Positions 30,001 to 39,000 of a DNA stretch of 64,000 bases are shown here, piece after piece. Each line of letters begins with the position of its first letter. Position 1 is the stretch's first letter. The stretch is from Convolutriloba macropyga (Eukaryota): assembly GCF_964194025.1 (NCBI RefSeq), contig NC_134482.1, positions 9,858,001 to 9,922,000 on the forward strand, written 5' to 3'. A program made the position numbers.

Positions 30001-33000
30001 TAATTGCTCTTTATTGTTTGTGTGTTGTTTCTTGCGGTCCCTATAAGTATCACTTAGTGTCGGTCTTATGGAACAAAAACTGGTTGAGGAAGTTGTTTTA
30101 TAATCAGCATGGTGGCTCTGATGAATGCTGGCTAGAAATTGCTCTGCAAACATTTCTGTGTGAGCGTTAACAGGCATCATTTCATCCTAATTGTGTAGGT
30201 CATTGATGTCAGACTTTTTTTTACAAAGCCAGTCAATGTGCCAAGAGCCATGTTTTGTTGTGTTTGCAGGTGGTTCCAGTTTGTATTGCTGATTGTGGAA
30301 GTCCAAATCGAAGCACCGTAGTTCAGAACGCTCCGACCAAAAACATTGTGAGTCACTGAGACTGTCTCTTTTGCGCAGCCCCAAACGCAACCACCATTCT
30401 TTTTCAGCATGTTATTGCGCTTTTGCAGTTTCTCTTTGGTGATTATTACATGTTCTCCAAGATTGAGCATACAATCGATGGTGACACCAATTACTTTGAC
30501 TTTGGACTTCACTGGTATTGGTGAATTGCTGATAGTGAGGTGGGGGTCAAACTTGGCCTCCTTGCTCCAGGTTGTGAACACAGTTGCACTTGATTTCTCA
30601 GCTGTTTTCTTGATTCTAGCCAGTCGTTTAAAATAATTAGGAAGGGAGTTATCATGTCACGTCATTCCTGTAGGTTAGATGTAGGTAAAGTTACGAGGGA
30701 CGTGAAACTGGGATTGCCTGATCCAAAACAAGATTCAATTTCTGTTAAATGATTGAAAAAAAAAATCGAAAATTGGCTTTGTTGGGCTCTTCATTCTCAA
30801 AACAGCAACCACCCTCCGCCTCATAATAACGTGACTGTGTAATTTCCAGCTGAAATCGAATGAAAAGGTCAAATTTAACAATACTTCCAAAAAAGTGCCC
30901 TCTCACCAGTACCTATCCATCTATCCATAAAAGCGAAAAACCTGGCTCACCCACAAACAAAAAAAGTTTATCACAGACACATTTGTGGGAAATATCATCT
31001 AATTTGCAGTTGAACTCAATTGTTAGCTTAACTTTTTGAATGAGACATCTTTGCATACATTTTCTCACTTAAAATTTTGCCTGATTTACTCCAGGTCACA
31101 TATTTGCCGTTAATTCAAACTAGCATAGTTTGTTTTGTACGGCAATTGAATAGCGTCTGCGCAAATTGAGAGCGAACTATTTATCCGTTTTTGCCATGCA
31201 CATTTCAATTCAACAGATAAGAAAGCCATTATATAGTGCCAATTCAAGTTTTCCTATACTTTCCTATTGATTTAAATGTAGGCCAAAACCATTATTTTAA
31301 TTATTGATTTAGGATTTTAGTTCGCCTTCTAAACACGGTCACATAATTCAAGCACGCACGAAAAAGTCCTCTATCAATCCAAAATCGCAAGGCATCAACA
31401 ATTACTTCAGGAAAACAAAACAAAGCAACCAGCTCGTTCCAATTTAAAACAAACCACGCTAAGTTAATCTGGAAATTTTAATTGGCTTCTGAAACAAACA
31501 ATACCTCTTTTAACAACCACAATTAATTTTTTTACATTTACCAATTTCATATTTTTGTGTTCTTTTCGAATCGAAAATCAATGTAAAGGTCGATACTTCA
31601 GCGCTCTTATTTTGCTTTAATTCTCGTATTTTCACACAATTCTTACCAATATTCAGTGATTAAAAACAAATACAAAACGATCTTACACACAGCTTTGAAA
31701 TTCAGCTCCTCAAATTAAACATATTGATTCGAAGTTCAATTCAAGCCACACAGCAAAAGCTGAATTGTTCTAAGTTTCATAATTTGAGTTTGAGACACAA
31801 AACTCACCACACAGTCGCATAAGCGTTCAATCTTTCTTCAAAATGCATTTAAACATTGAACATCATCATTTGTGTTTGATTATTCAGGCGGTTTTATTTC
31901 TTACAGTTGTCGTAGGTCACACAAAGGGCCAAACTAACCCTGGAGCAGCAAAATTCGACACTGTGGAATTTTGGGAGCAAAATAACGCAGATGAAATCGA
32001 AGAAGTTCAGAATATTGTTACGAGGAATTGGCAGGCTAAGAATCTTATCCTGTTTATAGGAGATGGTTTTGGACTTTCCGAGTTTGTGGCTTCCAGAATA
32101 TATCAAGGTTTTTAATTTTTATCATTATCACAATTTTCATCTTTGGCACCCACCATAGTTAAGATAGACCGAAAAAACAATGTTCTTAAATTTTTTTGAA
32201 TCTGAAACATGTAAATTAAAATAACCACTTGGTTAATGTTACATGTTATAAATTTATTAATCAAACATTATTATTTTCCAATTCATAACAAACTAAAGTT
32301 CGGTTTTCTTAAAATAGTTTAATAAAAAATATGTTTGAATCCTGCAACCCTTCTCTCTAAATAATGCTTTTCATCAGCAACAACCAAAAATTGCGAATTT
32401 TAAATTCAAAATACTTTCTGGAATGTTTCATTTGTATGGAAATTTTAGACAATTTTAAATTTGATCTAAAAACAAGGGGCATTGCTTCAAAGGGCATGGG
32501 ATATTAGGTCAGGCTCGAATAGGCGAACACGTTTTTTTTATAGTTTTGTTGACACTAGGCGAATACCAATTGAAACACTTAATGAGGTACTTCAAAATCC
32601 ACTTTACGCTATAAAGTCCCTACTGCGTCCCTAAAAATGTCTACATGATAATAGTTTATAAAAAAGATCATAATATAATCTTCAGAATTTTACAGCATTC
32701 ATTTTACGTTCATCCAGCATGCATGCTAACATTTTTCTCGAATTTTCCTGCGTCCCATAACTAAAACTATTTAGGATAAAGCAATGAAATATTTAATCAT
32801 GTTTTCCAATCTAGTCTCCGTATTTTTGTCAAATATGTTTGCACGAATGTTACCAAGGAGTAAAAATGGTGCATTAACTTGTGCTTTGCTTACTCATTTT
32901 GATGTAAAGACAATTGCTAGGGACTTATAAGTACTATAGCGAGGATTCTGAAGTACCGCATTTAGTGTTTAAATTAGCATTACCCTGATGTCCACGAAGC

Positions 33001-36000: not shown

Positions 36001-39000
36001 AAAATAATTTGTACTTAAAATTGTGTGACTAGAATTTAGAATCTTAACATGCAAAAATTTCAGAATAAAAGTTAAAAAATGCACAACATAAGTGATCAAC
36101 TTTTACATCCCCCCCCCCCAAAAAAAAAAGCAAACAAACAAACATTTACTAAGTATGTAAAGGATCCATGTTTAGACATCGCTCTACAGTTACTCGAGCA
36201 GCAGGATTCAGAGCTGATAGACATCATGTTAGGAGGTGGAATGCGCTCTTTTGTGCCTCAAGGCAAACGCTCCTTATTTGGAGAGGACGATTCAGAACGG
36301 AAAGATTTAATGGATTTGGTGGAACTTTGGGAAGTACAAGGTGGAAAAGCAGTTCACGAGCTCAATACACTTTTAGAGGTAATTTATAGACCGGGTCCAA
36401 CATAATTTAGTGCCCACTCTCCAACACGGAAGAGCCTGAAATTGAAGTAGCAACTGCAACAAACTGATTTTGTAGGTTCTCTTCTTGAGGTGTTTCAAAA
36501 TGAAAATTTAATTAATATACATAATTTTCCTTAAAAGGTGTGCTTTCCAGATTCAAATCTCAAGTCCTTCAATATTTGCACCCACAATAACAACGAAAAG
36601 AGAAATCATGGAGGGGTTTGTCGGCAATGCGGTGGGGTGGGGGAAGCAGGGAAGGAGGGAGGGGGTTAAGAGGGGAAAAATATACACGCTACATTGGTGA
36701 ATCATTGTTAGGTGGAACCCTTGGATCTGCCCCTTCTGGGACTGTTTGCGGACTCCCATTTAGAGTACGAGGGCAGAGCAGAAAAAAGAGCCTCTGAACC
36801 GACACTGTACAACATGACACTTAAGGCACTGGAGCTGCTCAAACACGCAAACAAAGACGGATTCTTTCTCATGGTCGAATCCGGAAGGATCGATCATGGA
36901 CAACATGCTAACAACCCTTACCTAACTGTTACAGAAGGTAAATATCTTAGGAAAAACAAACCTCCAAAAAATTGCCCTTAACACAATTAACTTTTGGCTT
37001 CTCAGCAGCTTCGGCTAATTGTACACGTAGAAACTAGTAAAGCTATGAAAGAGGTGCTTAAAGATGCCGTACCGGCTTCACCATTTTATACCGTTTTTGA
37101 GGACAAAAAGGCAAAATCAGACCAAAAGTCCATCAAAAATACCACAGGCCTAATACAATTGGTACAAAAACTAACTCAATTTCAGCCGATGCATTCGACC
37201 AGACCATTTCTGCGGTTCTGGACCGCGTAGACTTGGATGAAACCTTAGTCATCGTGACAGCTGACCATAGCCACGCATTCGCAATAACTGGCTACGCTGA
37301 TCTGAATAACCCTATTTTGGGATACAACCCAGACTGGAAAACAGGGCAGCCTCAAGCCACTCTGACGTACGGGGCTGGACCACTGAAGAACGTTTCTGCA
37401 CCTCCCACGAACACAAACGAATATCACTCGGGGTTCAGGTAAATTAGGACACTAATCAATCAATTAGATTATGCCTCCTATAAAGTCACTGAATAAAGAA
37501 TGCTGCTATTATGTCACAAGATTTTAAAAAACAGATTTAGGTGCGTTTAATCTTCAGGATAGCAAAAGTCTATTTCGATGAAAATGAAAACTGAGTACTA
37601 GGAGATCTACTCAATTTGATCTATAATTTTAATCGTGAAACCGCAAAAAGAAAACATTTCAGTATTTTTTTTACAAGTATAGGGAAACAGAATAAATGAG
37701 AGAGAATAAATGGGAGAGCAGCCAAATTCAGATGACTTGCATTGTTTAAGCAATTGAAAATATTCAAAAACTTAGTTAAAAAACTTAACAAAAATCCCAA
37801 TTTTCGACTCGAGATTTCATCTTTCCAGATACCCAGTAGCAGTTAACAGCACTCAAGGTCGCCACGGGGGCGAAGACGTCTTAATACTGGCCAATGGACC
37901 CATGGCACACCTGTTCCAGGGCATCCGGATGCAAACATACATTGCAGCAGTCATCCAATACGCCACATGTACTGGGAAGTACCAGGATGCATGTGAACTA
38001 AAAGAATTCAGCAACAGAGTCACGACTGCTGCTATGATTCCAACTTCAACGTCACTGTTTATTTTTTCCTGTGTCTTCATGCATCAAATGCTACTATTTA
38101 AATAATTTGAGAATTAGAAACTGGCCCTATACTAGCTGCTAATTAAATTAAATCTGTCTTGAAAGCACATTCAACTCGAACCACTTTAATTTAATTTTCC
38201 AGAAAAGCTTGTGCTTTTTGTGTTACTCAATCCCCCAGACCCCCCCCCCCAAAAAAAAAACTATTTTTTTTACTCAGCGTCAATTTTATTATCAAATTAT
38301 CGTTATTATTTTTTCGTTTGGCCGTACGGGGCTAAATCATTACGACCGAACCTACAATGTCTCGCTTCCCTCACCTCACTCAAAAAGAAATTGAACGCAG
38401 GGAGAAATTTTCAGACTAAGTATTGGAAATATAAGGATTTCAAAAATGCTGAAACAAAGAATTAAAGCGCAGCAGTTGCCTCAACTCCGTCGTGATGATT
38501 CTGAGCGTGGCACAGAAAGTTCCCACATAGCCAGCAAACAGCCGCCGTTGACCACCTGGCGTCAATTGGAAATGAAACAGGGAGAAGAGATAAGGTGCAA
38601 ATTGACAACCTTATTTTTTTTCGAAAAGTCAAAAAGTGTTCTATTCTAATTTAGTGTGTAGTGTTAGACAAATGTGTTGACATCAGCCTCTAAACTGGAA
38701 GCTATCAACTTTAATACAGATGCCAATTAGCATTCTCTCCAATGAATTCAAAAAATCTAAAGCACTATGATACGGCTGTTTCGGTTTATCCCGTTTCGTT
38801 TGATTTTAGTATTGACCTAGTAGACCGTATCCACTACATTGCGAGAGTTTAAAACCCATTCAGTAGAAAGAGTACGTGAGGTAAGTTAGAAGTCACATGT
38901 CGAAGTCGCGACTTGTTAAAAACAAAAAAAACATTGCCAGCAGTCTCCTGAACCGACTCGATGTTAACATTCACTTAACAAGGACCTTTTGAAACACTAA

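What the first reader, a model, noticed from the sequence alone, without database searches (positions are those of the whole stretch)
31843..38105. Complete multi-exon alkaline phosphatase gene nested antisense in STAMBP intron 4
All seven ALP exons lie within 27099-41576 on the opposite strand with intact splice phases and catalytic motifs. Retained introns indicate DNA-level relocation or duplication, not retroposition. I know of no such nesting in vertebrates or flies. A housekeeping host and a probably tissue-specific nested gene imply transcriptional interference. Both genes stay colinear across the 200-N gap, which supports the assembly.
[Added by the scan's program, not by the reader: the finding's places include an assembly gap (unread letters, written N; its length is only estimated) at 34241 to 34440. 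Whether the letters on both sides are continuous or in frame is not known: test that first.]
Basis: partly seen in the sequence, partly recalled or inferred. Interest (0 to 1): 0.65.

Follow-up and report, generated by a model that had tools for sequence, protein, structure and literature searches.

The report
Alkaline phosphatase gene inside STAMBP intron
An intact seven-exon alkaline phosphatase gene of an acoel flatworm-like animal sits on the opposite strand inside a 14.5-kb intron of its STAMBP-like gene, which is a real but ordinary kind of gene arrangement in animal genomes.

Summary
The window is an acoel locus (Convolutriloba macropyga), not human. The NCBI model STAM-binding protein-like A isoform X2 (362 aa) maps exactly onto seven minus-strand exons.

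Its fourth coding intron is 27099-41576. That intron holds a plus-strand alkaline phosphatase (ALP) gene of seven exons, 31843-38105. All six introns are GT-AG, with phases 1,1,1,0,1,2. The exon lengths sum to 1596 nt, which is 531 codons plus a stop.

Each exon matches Pfam PF00245 in colinear order. Catalytic and metal-binding motifs are present.

The 200-N gap lies in ALP intron 1. No coding piece is missing: a Symsagittifera roscoffensis ALP covers exons 1 and 2 without a break.

Four intron positions are shared with that ALP, which argues against retroposition. In S. roscoffensis the ALP and the STAMBP-like gene lie on different contigs, so the nesting may be lineage-specific.

Nested genes are common in animals (abstracts of PMC3814207 and PMC5174743). 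Transcriptional interference is untested. Interest is low.

The parts
31843..32107 (+). ALP coding exon 1: ATG, hydrophobic N-terminus, GDGFG metal-ligand motif; ends in phase 1, donor GTTTTT
   Evidence: PF00245 profile 1-25. PDB hits 5 of 5 animal ALPs. P0284 residues 39-89 at 65% identity. Kyte-Doolittle maximum 2.91 at residues 10-20.
34241..34440 (.). Assembly gap (200 N) inside ALP intron 1 and STAMBP intron 4; not coding
   Evidence: No coding piece is missing across it.
35175..35318 (+). ALP exon 2: PDSASTA motif with the nucleophile serine; phase 1 in, phase 1 out
   Evidence: Aligned to the TNAP motif PDSAGTA. PF00245 profile 20-70.
35669..35896 (+). ALP exon 3: TTARVTHATPAA motif (phosphate-binding Arg) and two Cys
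   Evidence: PF00245 profile 70-143, E 2.5e-16. P0284 at 68% identity.
36176..36378 (+). ALP exon 4: the least conserved exon; ends in phase 0
   Evidence: PF00245 profile 136-207. P0284 at 46% identity. No PDB hit at E<=0.01.
36712..36937 (+). ALP exon 5: VESGRIDHGQH motif (Glu, Asp and His metal ligands)
   Evidence: Aligned to PLAP residues 260-330, where E311, D316 and H320 are matched. PF00245 E 2.2e-20.
37186..37438 (+). ALP exon 6: TADHSH motif; ends in phase 2
   Evidence: PF00245 profile 284-353. 11 of 11 PDB hits are animal ALPs.
37829..38105 (+). ALP exon 7: HGGEDV motif, C-terminal Cys pair, hydrophobic tail, stop TAA
   Evidence: Kyte-Doolittle maximum 2.09 at residues 74-84 of 91. 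ATTAAA lies 37 nt downstream at 38142.
27099..41576 (-). Host intron: fourth coding intron of the STAMBP-like A gene, 14,478 positions including the 200 N
   Evidence: Donor GT at 41576-41575 and acceptor AG at 27100-27099. P0012 runs straight across the junction.
41577..41792 (-). STAMBP-like coding exon 4, ending in ...AQIK
26829..27098 (-). STAMBP-like coding exon 5, starting EAERKR...
48896..48943 (-). STAMBP-like coding exon 1 as used by isoform X2
42466..42530 (-). STAMBP-like coding exon 2
42316..42391 (-). STAMBP-like coding exon 3
23731..23981 (-). STAMBP-like coding exon 6: JAB/MPN domain with the motif [14 protein letters not shown]
   Evidence: PF01398 E 6.4e-13. Translation. Boundaries.
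22488..22650 (-). STAMBP-like coding exon 7 with stop

Best explanation
This is a genuine nested gene pair in the genome of the acoel Convolutriloba macropyga. The host is the STAM-binding protein-like A gene, a JAMM/MPN deubiquitinase of the AMSH/STAMBP type, on the minus strand. The guest is an intact animal-type alkaline phosphatase gene on the plus strand. It has its own seven exons and six short-to-medium introns, and it lies wholly within the host's fourth coding intron.

The ALP most likely encodes an active enzyme. It has an N-terminal signal-like hydrophobic stretch and a C-terminal hydrophobic tail. The tail would fit a GPI-anchor signal, as in other animal ALPs; that reading is inferred.

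Each gene is presumably transcribed from its own promoter, and the ALP is removed from the host pre-mRNA together with the intron. This too is inferred.

The gene moved or was duplicated as DNA, introns included. It was not retroposed. In the only related species for which I have named proteins, S. roscoffensis, the closest ALP and the STAMBP-like gene lie on different chromosome-sized contigs. The nesting therefore probably arose, or was lost, within the family Convolutidae. That step is inferred and rests on orthology that I did not establish.
For: Host.
- P0012 (NCBI, C. macropyga, 362 aa) matched the exon 5 ORF at 98% identity over the part aligned.
- It maps onto seven minus-strand exons with canonical splice sites. 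Their lengths sum to 1089 nt, which is 362 codons plus a stop.
- The exon 4/5 junction is also contiguous in the S. roscoffensis protein P0013.
- Exon 6 hits the JAB domain PF01398 at E 6.4e-13.

Guest.
- 7 of 7 exons hit PF00245 in colinear order.
- All introns are GT-AG with compatible phases, and the total is 1596 nt.
- Exon GC is 0.38-0.54 against 0.30-0.41 in the introns.
- Motifs were aligned residue by residue to solved animal ALPs: GDGFG, DSASTA, TTARVTHATPAA, VESGRIDHGQH, TADHSH and HGGEDV plus the Cys pair.
- P0284, 'intestinal-type alkaline phosphatase 1-like' of S. roscoffensis (529 aa), aligns to all seven exons in order at 47-68% identity.
- An exhaustive phmmer search with exon 6 gave 563 representatives at E<=0.001. 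I looked up the top ten; four of them, or their clusters, carried names, and all four were animals: an acoel, a beetle, a mussel and an amphipod.

Intron sharing.
- S. roscoffensis genomic ORF fragments stop or start by read-through exactly at introns 1, 2, 3 and 5 (P0285/P0286, P0015, P0139/P0287).

Different contigs in S. roscoffensis.
- P0013 lies on a contig of 56,557,108 bp.
- P0284 lies on a contig of 68,556,619 bp.
Against: - I saw no RNA evidence, so transcription of the ALP and splicing of the host across 14.5 kb rest on gene models and homology only.
- Neither word-index search (exon 5; exon 3) returned a protein identical to the window's ALP. They did not return P0284 either, because only cluster representatives are searched. 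This says little, but it leaves open that the ALP is unannotated or is treated as a pseudogene.
- Exon 1 alone is below the Pfam cut-off (17.4 against 24.4 bits). Exon 4 has no PDB match at E<=0.01.
- The donor of intron 1 (GTTTTT) is weak.
- In exons 3 and 5 the named bacterial ALPs score as high as or higher than the non-acoel animal ALPs (the list is dominated by Alphaproteobacteria). 'Animal-type' therefore rests on exons 1, 2, 6 and 7 and on the acoel relatives.
- Orthology of P0284 is not shown. Two unnamed fragments (P0135 and P0136, 68-71% identity) are closer in exon 6 than the S. roscoffensis sequence (65%).
Confidence: 0.85

Rival explanations
1. Scaffolding artefact. The two contigs joined at the 200-N gap are not neighbours, so both the nesting and the seven-exon ALP are chimeras of two loci.
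For: - The gap is a scaffold join. According to passages of the genome note PMC13650328, the C. macropyga assembly was scaffolded with YaHS, has 6,645 gaps and received hundreds of manual breaks and joins.
- ALP exon 1 is alone on the left side of the gap.
- A second, about 90% identical STAMBP-like copy exists on a 39.5-kb contig (P0011), so similar sequence that could be confused does exist.
Against: - A false join would have to place the two halves of two unrelated genes in the right order, orientation and splice phase at the same time.
- P0284 is covered without loss across the exon 1/2 junction.
- The exon sequences left of the gap match P0012 and not the second copy P0011, as seen by comparing.
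- The gap flanks carry the two parts of one repeat copy in register.
Confidence: 0.04
2. The ALP is a silent or decaying copy, a recent unprocessed pseudogene carried in the intron, and not a working gene.
For: - No identical protein surfaced in the two word-index searches.
- No expression data were available.
- The first donor is weak.
- One calcium-site residue of PLAP (E270) is Ala here.
Against: - 531 codons stay open over seven exons, with all six introns canonical.
- Every catalytic and metal-ligand motif that I checked is intact.
- Exons keep a higher GC than introns.
- The failure to find an identical protein has a technical explanation: the named S. roscoffensis ALP was missed in the same way.
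Confidence: 0.08
3. The nesting arose through the host and not the guest. A rearrangement or intron expansion moved STAMBP exons 1-4 to the far side of a pre-existing neighbouring ALP gene.
For: - No terminal repeats or transposon signature flank the ALP as a unit.
- The locus is rich in repeats, with 1.8-kb inverted copies on both sides of the STAMBP gene.
- My evidence that the pair is separate in S. roscoffensis fits either direction of change.
Against: - Nothing here speaks directly against it.
- The abstract of PMC5174743 says nested genes typically arise by insertion of young duplicates into long introns. That is a general statement, not a test of this locus.
Confidence: 0.3
4. The ALP was acquired from a marine bacterium and later gained introns.
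For: - The word-index search with exon 3 listed named Alphaproteobacteria almost exclusively, at 43-68% identity.
- In exons 3 and 5 bacterial ALPs score above the mussel, amphipod and beetle ALPs.
Against: - Exons 1, 2, 6 and 7 match only animal ALPs among solved structures: 5 of 5, 11 of 11, 11 of 11 and 11 of 11.
- The C-terminal Cys pair and hydrophobic tail align with TNAP. They are absent from the bacterial P0002, P0007 and P0016.
- The exhaustive search with exon 6 gave animal proteins wherever names were available.
- The word index is biased towards the huge number of bacterial entries.
Confidence: 0.03

Closest known systems
Nested (intronic) protein-coding genes of animals, e.g. Drosophila nested/including gene pairs (PMC3814207, PMC5174743, PMC3786989; abstracts seen in the listings)
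   Same: A complete protein-coding gene lies inside one intron of another gene, on the opposite strand, without exon overlap. The guest has short introns and the host intron is long.
   Different: The pair is new to me, and it lies in an acoel, a group where nesting has not been surveyed as far as my searches show. The guest is a multi-exon member of an old enzyme family, not a short young gene.
Symsagittifera roscoffensis 'intestinal-type alkaline phosphatase 1-like' (XP_063718574.1, P0284)
   Same: The length is similar, 529 aa against 531 codons. It is colinear over all seven exons at 47-68% identity. Intron positions 1, 2, 3 and 5 are the same. It has the same motifs and a hydrophobic C-terminal tail.
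   Different: It lies on a different contig from the STAMBP-like gene of that species. Exons 6 and 7 are contiguous in its genomic ORF fragments, so intron 6 is not shared. Orthology is not established.
Mammalian tissue-nonspecific, placental and intestinal alkaline phosphatases and 1k7h/1shn (which I recall as the shrimp enzyme), all solved structures
   Same: The catalytic Ser motif, the Arg, the metal ligands and the C-terminal Cys pair all align.
   Different: Similarity per exon is only moderate, at 22-43 bits. PLAP residue H319 is Gln here and E270 is Ala. Exon 4 finds no solved relative.
STAMBP/AMSH family JAMM deubiquitinases (host gene)
   Same: Pfam domains precomputed for P0012 are PF08969, PF01398 and PF14464. 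The JAB hit and the H-x-H...S...D motif are in exon 6.
   Different: The linker encoded by exon 5 is low in complexity and rich in Ser and Asn. Isoform X2 skips part of the N-terminal region that is present in S. roscoffensis.

Membership tests
Alkaline phosphatase, Pfam PF00245 | Domain match over the whole length | tested here: met
   Tested exon by exon. 7 of 7 exons hit, 6 of 7 above the 24.4-bit cut-off, and profile positions 1-422 of 423 are covered in order.
Alkaline phosphatase, Pfam PF00245 | Nucleophile Ser in the D-S-x-x-T-A motif | tested here: met
   PDSASTA aligned to the TNAP motif PDSAGTA.
Alkaline phosphatase, Pfam PF00245 | Metal ligands (Asp in exon 1; Glu/Asp/His in exon 5; Asp-His in exon 6; His in exon 7) and the phosphate-binding Arg | tested here: met
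   E311, D316 and H320 were counted on the PLAP chain numbering. Other residue numbers are recalled, not computed.
Alkaline phosphatase, Pfam PF00245 | Phosphomonoesterase activity | not testable with these tools
   Needs expression and an enzyme assay.
Animal-type (membrane-anchored) ALP | C-terminal Cys pair and N-terminal helix region shared with animal enzymes | tested here: met
   Exon 7 aligns YATCTG...DAC to the TNAP sequence YASCIG...DHC. Exon 1 matches only animal ALPs in the PDB, 5 of 5.
Animal-type (membrane-anchored) ALP | Signal peptide and GPI-anchor signal | tested here: inconclusive
   Only hydropathy was computed. The N-terminal maximum is 2.91 and the C-terminal maximum is 2.09. 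No dedicated predictor was available.
Nested gene pair | All exons of the guest lie inside one intron of the host, with no exon overlap | tested here: met
   The guest CDS 31843-38105 lies within intron 27099-41576. UTRs are unknown. The nearest host exons are 4.7 kb and 3.5 kb away.
Nested gene pair | Host exons on both sides belong to one transcript | tested here: met
   This holds at the level of models. P0012 maps exactly and the junction is conserved in P0013. No reads were seen.
Nested gene pair | Both genes transcribed | not testable with these tools
STAMBP/AMSH JAMM deubiquitinase (host) | JAB/MPN domain with the metal-binding motif | tested here: met
   PF01398 at E 6.4e-13 on exon 6. 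The motif is visible in the ORF 23727-24080.

The most novel reading that the evidence does not exclude
The intron-bearing ALP gene moved as DNA into the STAMBP-like intron within the Convolutidae, after the Convolutriloba and Symsagittifera lineages split. The two genes now influence each other's expression through convergent, overlapping transcription. That would make this a datable nesting event in Xenacoelomorpha that can be followed with the public stranded RNA-seq data.
Probability: 0.3. Interest if true: 0.3.

Novelty: new member of a known kind. Interest (0 to 1): 0.15.

Why it matters
Its main value is for annotation. It confirms that a scaffold join is sound, that a long intron of a conserved deubiquitinase gene is real, and that an apparently functional ALP gene lies there and should be annotated. 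It adds one clean, intron-retaining example to the catalogue of nested genes in a sparsely studied animal phylum. The comparison with S. roscoffensis hints that the nesting is evolutionarily young. It does not open a new mechanism or touch a long-standing question.

Tried and rejected
- Bacterial origin. The word-index searches with exon 5 (10 hits from 72 candidates) and exon 3 (237 hits from 276 candidates) listed mostly bacterial or unnamed ALPs and no acoel full-length protein. I first read this as a hint of bacterial origin or of a missing annotation. I rejected both readings after one search showed that the named S. roscoffensis ALP is hidden behind a 189-aa cluster representative, so such searches miss it.
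- Transposon capture. I looked for direct or inverted repeats flanking the ALP as a unit and found none.
- Overlap of the gap flanks, which would mark a redundant join: none found.
- RNA genes. There were 0 Rfam matches at gathering thresholds and 0 tRNAs in the window.
- Pfam on reverse-transcriptase-like and integrase-like ORFs. 0 of 8 transposon or unknown ORFs gave a family at E<=0.01. The ORFs in the host intron that look like the C-terminal part of a non-LTR element therefore remain a resemblance by eye.
- Exon 4 against the PDB: no hit.
- This means no full-length protein, no structure prediction, no exact look-up of the full-length protein in the collection and no full-length tree.
- Not available: any eukaryotic genome collection for synteny. 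I did not use genome contigs, because it holds only bacteria and archaea.
- Supplementary files were not consulted. None bears on a claim made here.

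
Full report
**What the window is.** A search with the minus-strand ORF 26823-27236 returned 'STAM-binding protein-like A isoform X2 [Convolutriloba macropyga]' (P0012, 362 aa, on a contig of 48.9 Mb). It was 98% identical over the part aligned. The search also returned a second C. macropyga protein (P0011) and a Symsagittifera roscoffensis orthologue (P0013). C. macropyga is an acoel of the phylum Xenacoelomorpha. 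I therefore take the contig for acoel, not human. GC content is 31-41% across the window.

**The host gene.** tblastn of P0012 and a codon-level reading of the minus strand give seven coding exons:

| Exon | Coordinates (minus strand) |
|---|---|
| 1 | 48943-48896 |
| 2 | 42530-42466 |
| 3 | 42391-42316 |
| 4 | 41792-41577 |
| 5 | 27098-26829 |
| 6 | 23981-23731 |
| 7 | 22650-22488 |

- All introns are GT-AG, and the exon lengths sum to 1089 nt. That is 362 codons plus a stop, exactly the length of P0012.
- The residues on either side of this intron are also contiguous in the S. roscoffensis protein P0013. The two halves therefore belong to one gene by homology as well as by the NCBI model.
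- Exon 6 carries the JAB/MPN domain (PF01398, E 6.4e-13).

**The nested gene.** On the plus strand, seven stop-to-stop ORFs inside that intron each match Pfam PF00245, and 6 of 7 exceed the curated cut-off on their own. The profile positions run in order from 1 to 422 of 423. From the codon display and the exon table:

| Exon | Coordinates | Length (nt) | Following intron | Intron length | Phase |
|---|---|---|---|---|---|
| 1 | 31843-32107 | 265 | 1 | 3067 (includes the gap) | 1 |
| 2 | 35175-35318 | 144 | 2 | 350 | 1 |
| 3 | 35669-35896 | 228 | 3 | 279 | 1 |
| 4 | 36176-36378 | 203 | 4 | 333 | 0 |
| 5 | 36712-36937 | 226 | 5 | 248 | 1 |
| 6 | 37186-37438 | 253 | 6 | 390 | 2 |
| 7 | 37829-38105 | 277 | – | – | – |

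- All six introns are GT-AG. The exon lengths sum to 1596 nt, which is 531 codons plus TAA.
- Exon GC is 0.38-0.54 and intron GC is 0.30-0.41.
- I built no full-length protein, so there is no structure prediction, no exact look-up of the whole protein and no full-length tree.

**Is it a working alkaline phosphatase?** I compared each exon with solved structures.
- Exon 1 aligns its GDGFG motif with 1k7h, which I recall as the shrimp enzyme (5 of 5 hits are animal ALPs).
- Exon 2 aligns PDSASTA with PDSAGTA of TNAP, the nucleophile serine (11 of 11 animal).
- Exon 3 aligns TTARVTHATPAA with TTTRVNHATPSA (11 animal entries rank above 8 others).
- Exon 5 aligns VESGRIDHGQH with VEGGRIDHGHH of placental ALP. 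Counted on the chain numbering, this matches E311, D316 and H320, while H319 is Gln and E270 is Ala (50 hits, including bacterial ones).
- Exon 6 aligns TADHSH (11 of 11 animal).
- Exon 7 aligns HGGEDV and a Cys pair with TNAP (11 of 11 animal).
- Exon 4 has no solved relative at E<=0.01. It does match Pfam and the acoel relative.
- Hydropathy shows a strong N-terminal hydrophobic stretch and a C-terminal hydrophobic tail. These fit a signal peptide and a GPI-anchor signal. That reading rests on what is known of animal ALPs and was not tested.
- An ATTAAA lies 37 nt after the stop.

I conclude that the gene is intact and probably functional. Expression is not shown.

**The gap.** Two N runs exist: 34241-34440 and 25114-25330. 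The first lies in ALP intron 1 and host intron 4, so no frame crosses it. Four tests bear on continuity.
1. Exon 1 ends and exon 2 begins in phase 1.
2. The S. roscoffensis ALP P0284 aligns to exon 1 through residue 89 and to exon 2 from residue 91, with residue 90 at the split codon. No exon is hidden in the gap (Pfam positions 1-25 then 20-70).
3. The two 3-kb flanks share no sequence, so the join is not a redundant overlap.
4. 33881-34082 and 34551-34611 match the left and right parts of a short repeat, in the same orientation. Those parts are adjacent in copies at 55497-55744 and 23382-23514.

Add to this the colinearity of the host gene. The exon sequences on the left side are those of P0012 and not of the second copy P0011. 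A misjoin is therefore very unlikely. Passages of the genome note say that the assembly was scaffolded with YaHS and holds 6,645 gaps (PMC13650328). I did not try to learn the gap's letters.

**Relatives and origin.** The two word-index searches with exons 5 and 3 listed mostly bacterial or unnamed ALPs and nothing identical to the window. This is not evidence for a missing annotation or for a bacterial origin.
- The exhaustive search with exon 6 found 563 representatives at E<=0.001, the best 150 listed.
- A cluster look-up of ten of them showed that the named S. roscoffensis ALP (P0284, XP_063718574.1, 529 aa) sits behind a 189-aa representative, so the word-index searches could not see it.
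- Four of the ten clusters carried names: an acoel, a firefly, a mussel and an amphipod. All are animals.
- P0284 aligns with all seven exons in order at 47-68% identity.
- Per-exon BLAST shows that non-acoel animal ALPs and some bacterial ALPs are about equally distant. Bacterial ALPs score higher in the catalytic-core exons 3 and 5. Animal ALPs score higher in some references for exons 6 and 7. Together with the animal-only PDB hits for exons 1, 2, 6 and 7, I file this as a fast-evolving animal ALP. I give horizontal transfer about 3%.

**Intron positions.** Genomic ORF fragments of the S. roscoffensis gene break off by read-through at specific places.
- P0285 and P0286 end exactly where exon 1 ends.
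- P0015 starts and ends where exon 3 does.
- P0139 and P0287 start where exon 6 starts.
- Introns 1, 2, 3 and 5 are therefore shared in position, and the read-through codons fit the same phase.
- P0139 and P0287 run through exons 6 and 7 without interruption, so intron 6 is not shared.

**Is the nesting shared?** In S. roscoffensis the STAMBP-like protein is recorded on one contig of 56,557,108 bp and P0284 on one contig of 68,556,619 bp. Those two genes are therefore not nested there. This suggests gain or loss of the nesting within Convolutidae, with three caveats.
- Orthology is not established.
- Two unnamed fragments are closer in exon 6 than the S. roscoffensis sequence.
- I had no eukaryotic genome collection in which to check synteny.

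No repeats flank the ALP as a unit, so the mechanism of movement is open. Insertion into the intron and engulfment by a host rearrangement both remain possible.

**How unusual is it?** Nested genes are common.
- 'Nearly 10% of the genes' of D. melanogaster are in nested structures (abstract of PMC3814207).
- About 6% of Drosophila genes are intronic (abstract of PMC3786989).

All three were seen as abstracts in the listings. A full-text search for STAMBP, alkaline phosphatase and nested found one irrelevant abstract book. The pair seems undescribed, but the kind is ordinary. Transcriptional interference is a possibility, not an implication, and nothing here tests it.

**Verdict.** It is a new member of a known kind, of low interest (0.15).

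Noticed in passing
window 25114-25330: A second run of N (217 positions) lies in the STAMBP-like intron between coding exons 5 and 6. The host model P0012 spans it as well.
   Followed up: partly
window 28421-28495 and 27099-27200 (minus strand): A second C. macropyga protein, P0011 (301 aa, on a 39.5-kb contig), is 88-97% identical to exons 5-7. Its N-terminal part matches sequence inside the host intron, at 28495-28421 (96%), and reads through just upstream of exon 5. It may be a haplotype or paralogue model that starts inside the intron, or a hint of an internal start. I did not resolve this.
   Followed up: partly
window 48830-48943 (minus strand): Exon 1 of the host stays open past the isoform X2 donor (48896) to a second donor after 48830. 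The longer form matches S. roscoffensis P0013 residues 1-39 at 62% identity, so an alternative 5' splice site probably gives a longer isoform.
   Followed up: partly
window 1-17535: An array of repeated units up to 3.5 kb long, 87-99% identical to each other, carries integrase-like and gag-like ORFs. The three ORFs I sent to Pfam gave no family at E<=0.01.
   Followed up: partly
window 20376-22192 versus 49686-53184: A repeat of about 1.8 kb just beyond the 3' end of the host gene has two adjacent inverted copies (88% and 80% identity) just beyond its 5' end. The whole STAMBP/ALP unit is therefore bracketed by inverted repeats.
   Followed up: no
window 29323-30656 (minus strand): Three consecutive ORFs of 124-159 aa lie in the host intron upstream of the ALP. 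By eye they resemble the C-terminal part of a non-LTR retrotransposon protein. Pfam gave no hit.
   Followed up: partly
window 33881-34082 and 34551-34611; copies at 55497-55744 and 23382-23514: A short interspersed repeat family. The copy in ALP intron 1 is interrupted by extra sequence that includes the assembly gap. Degenerate 15-nt-period tandem repeats lie nearby at 33490-33624.
   Followed up: partly
proteins P0139 and P0287 (S. roscoffensis cluster): The genomic ORF fragments of the S. roscoffensis ALP run through the exon 6/7 boundary without a break. Intron 6 of the window's gene is therefore absent there: gained here or lost there.
   Followed up: partly
window 56728-57201 (minus strand): A 157-aa open frame rich in Lys, Ser and Asp has no Pfam family. 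It may be an exon of a neighbouring gene.
   Followed up: no
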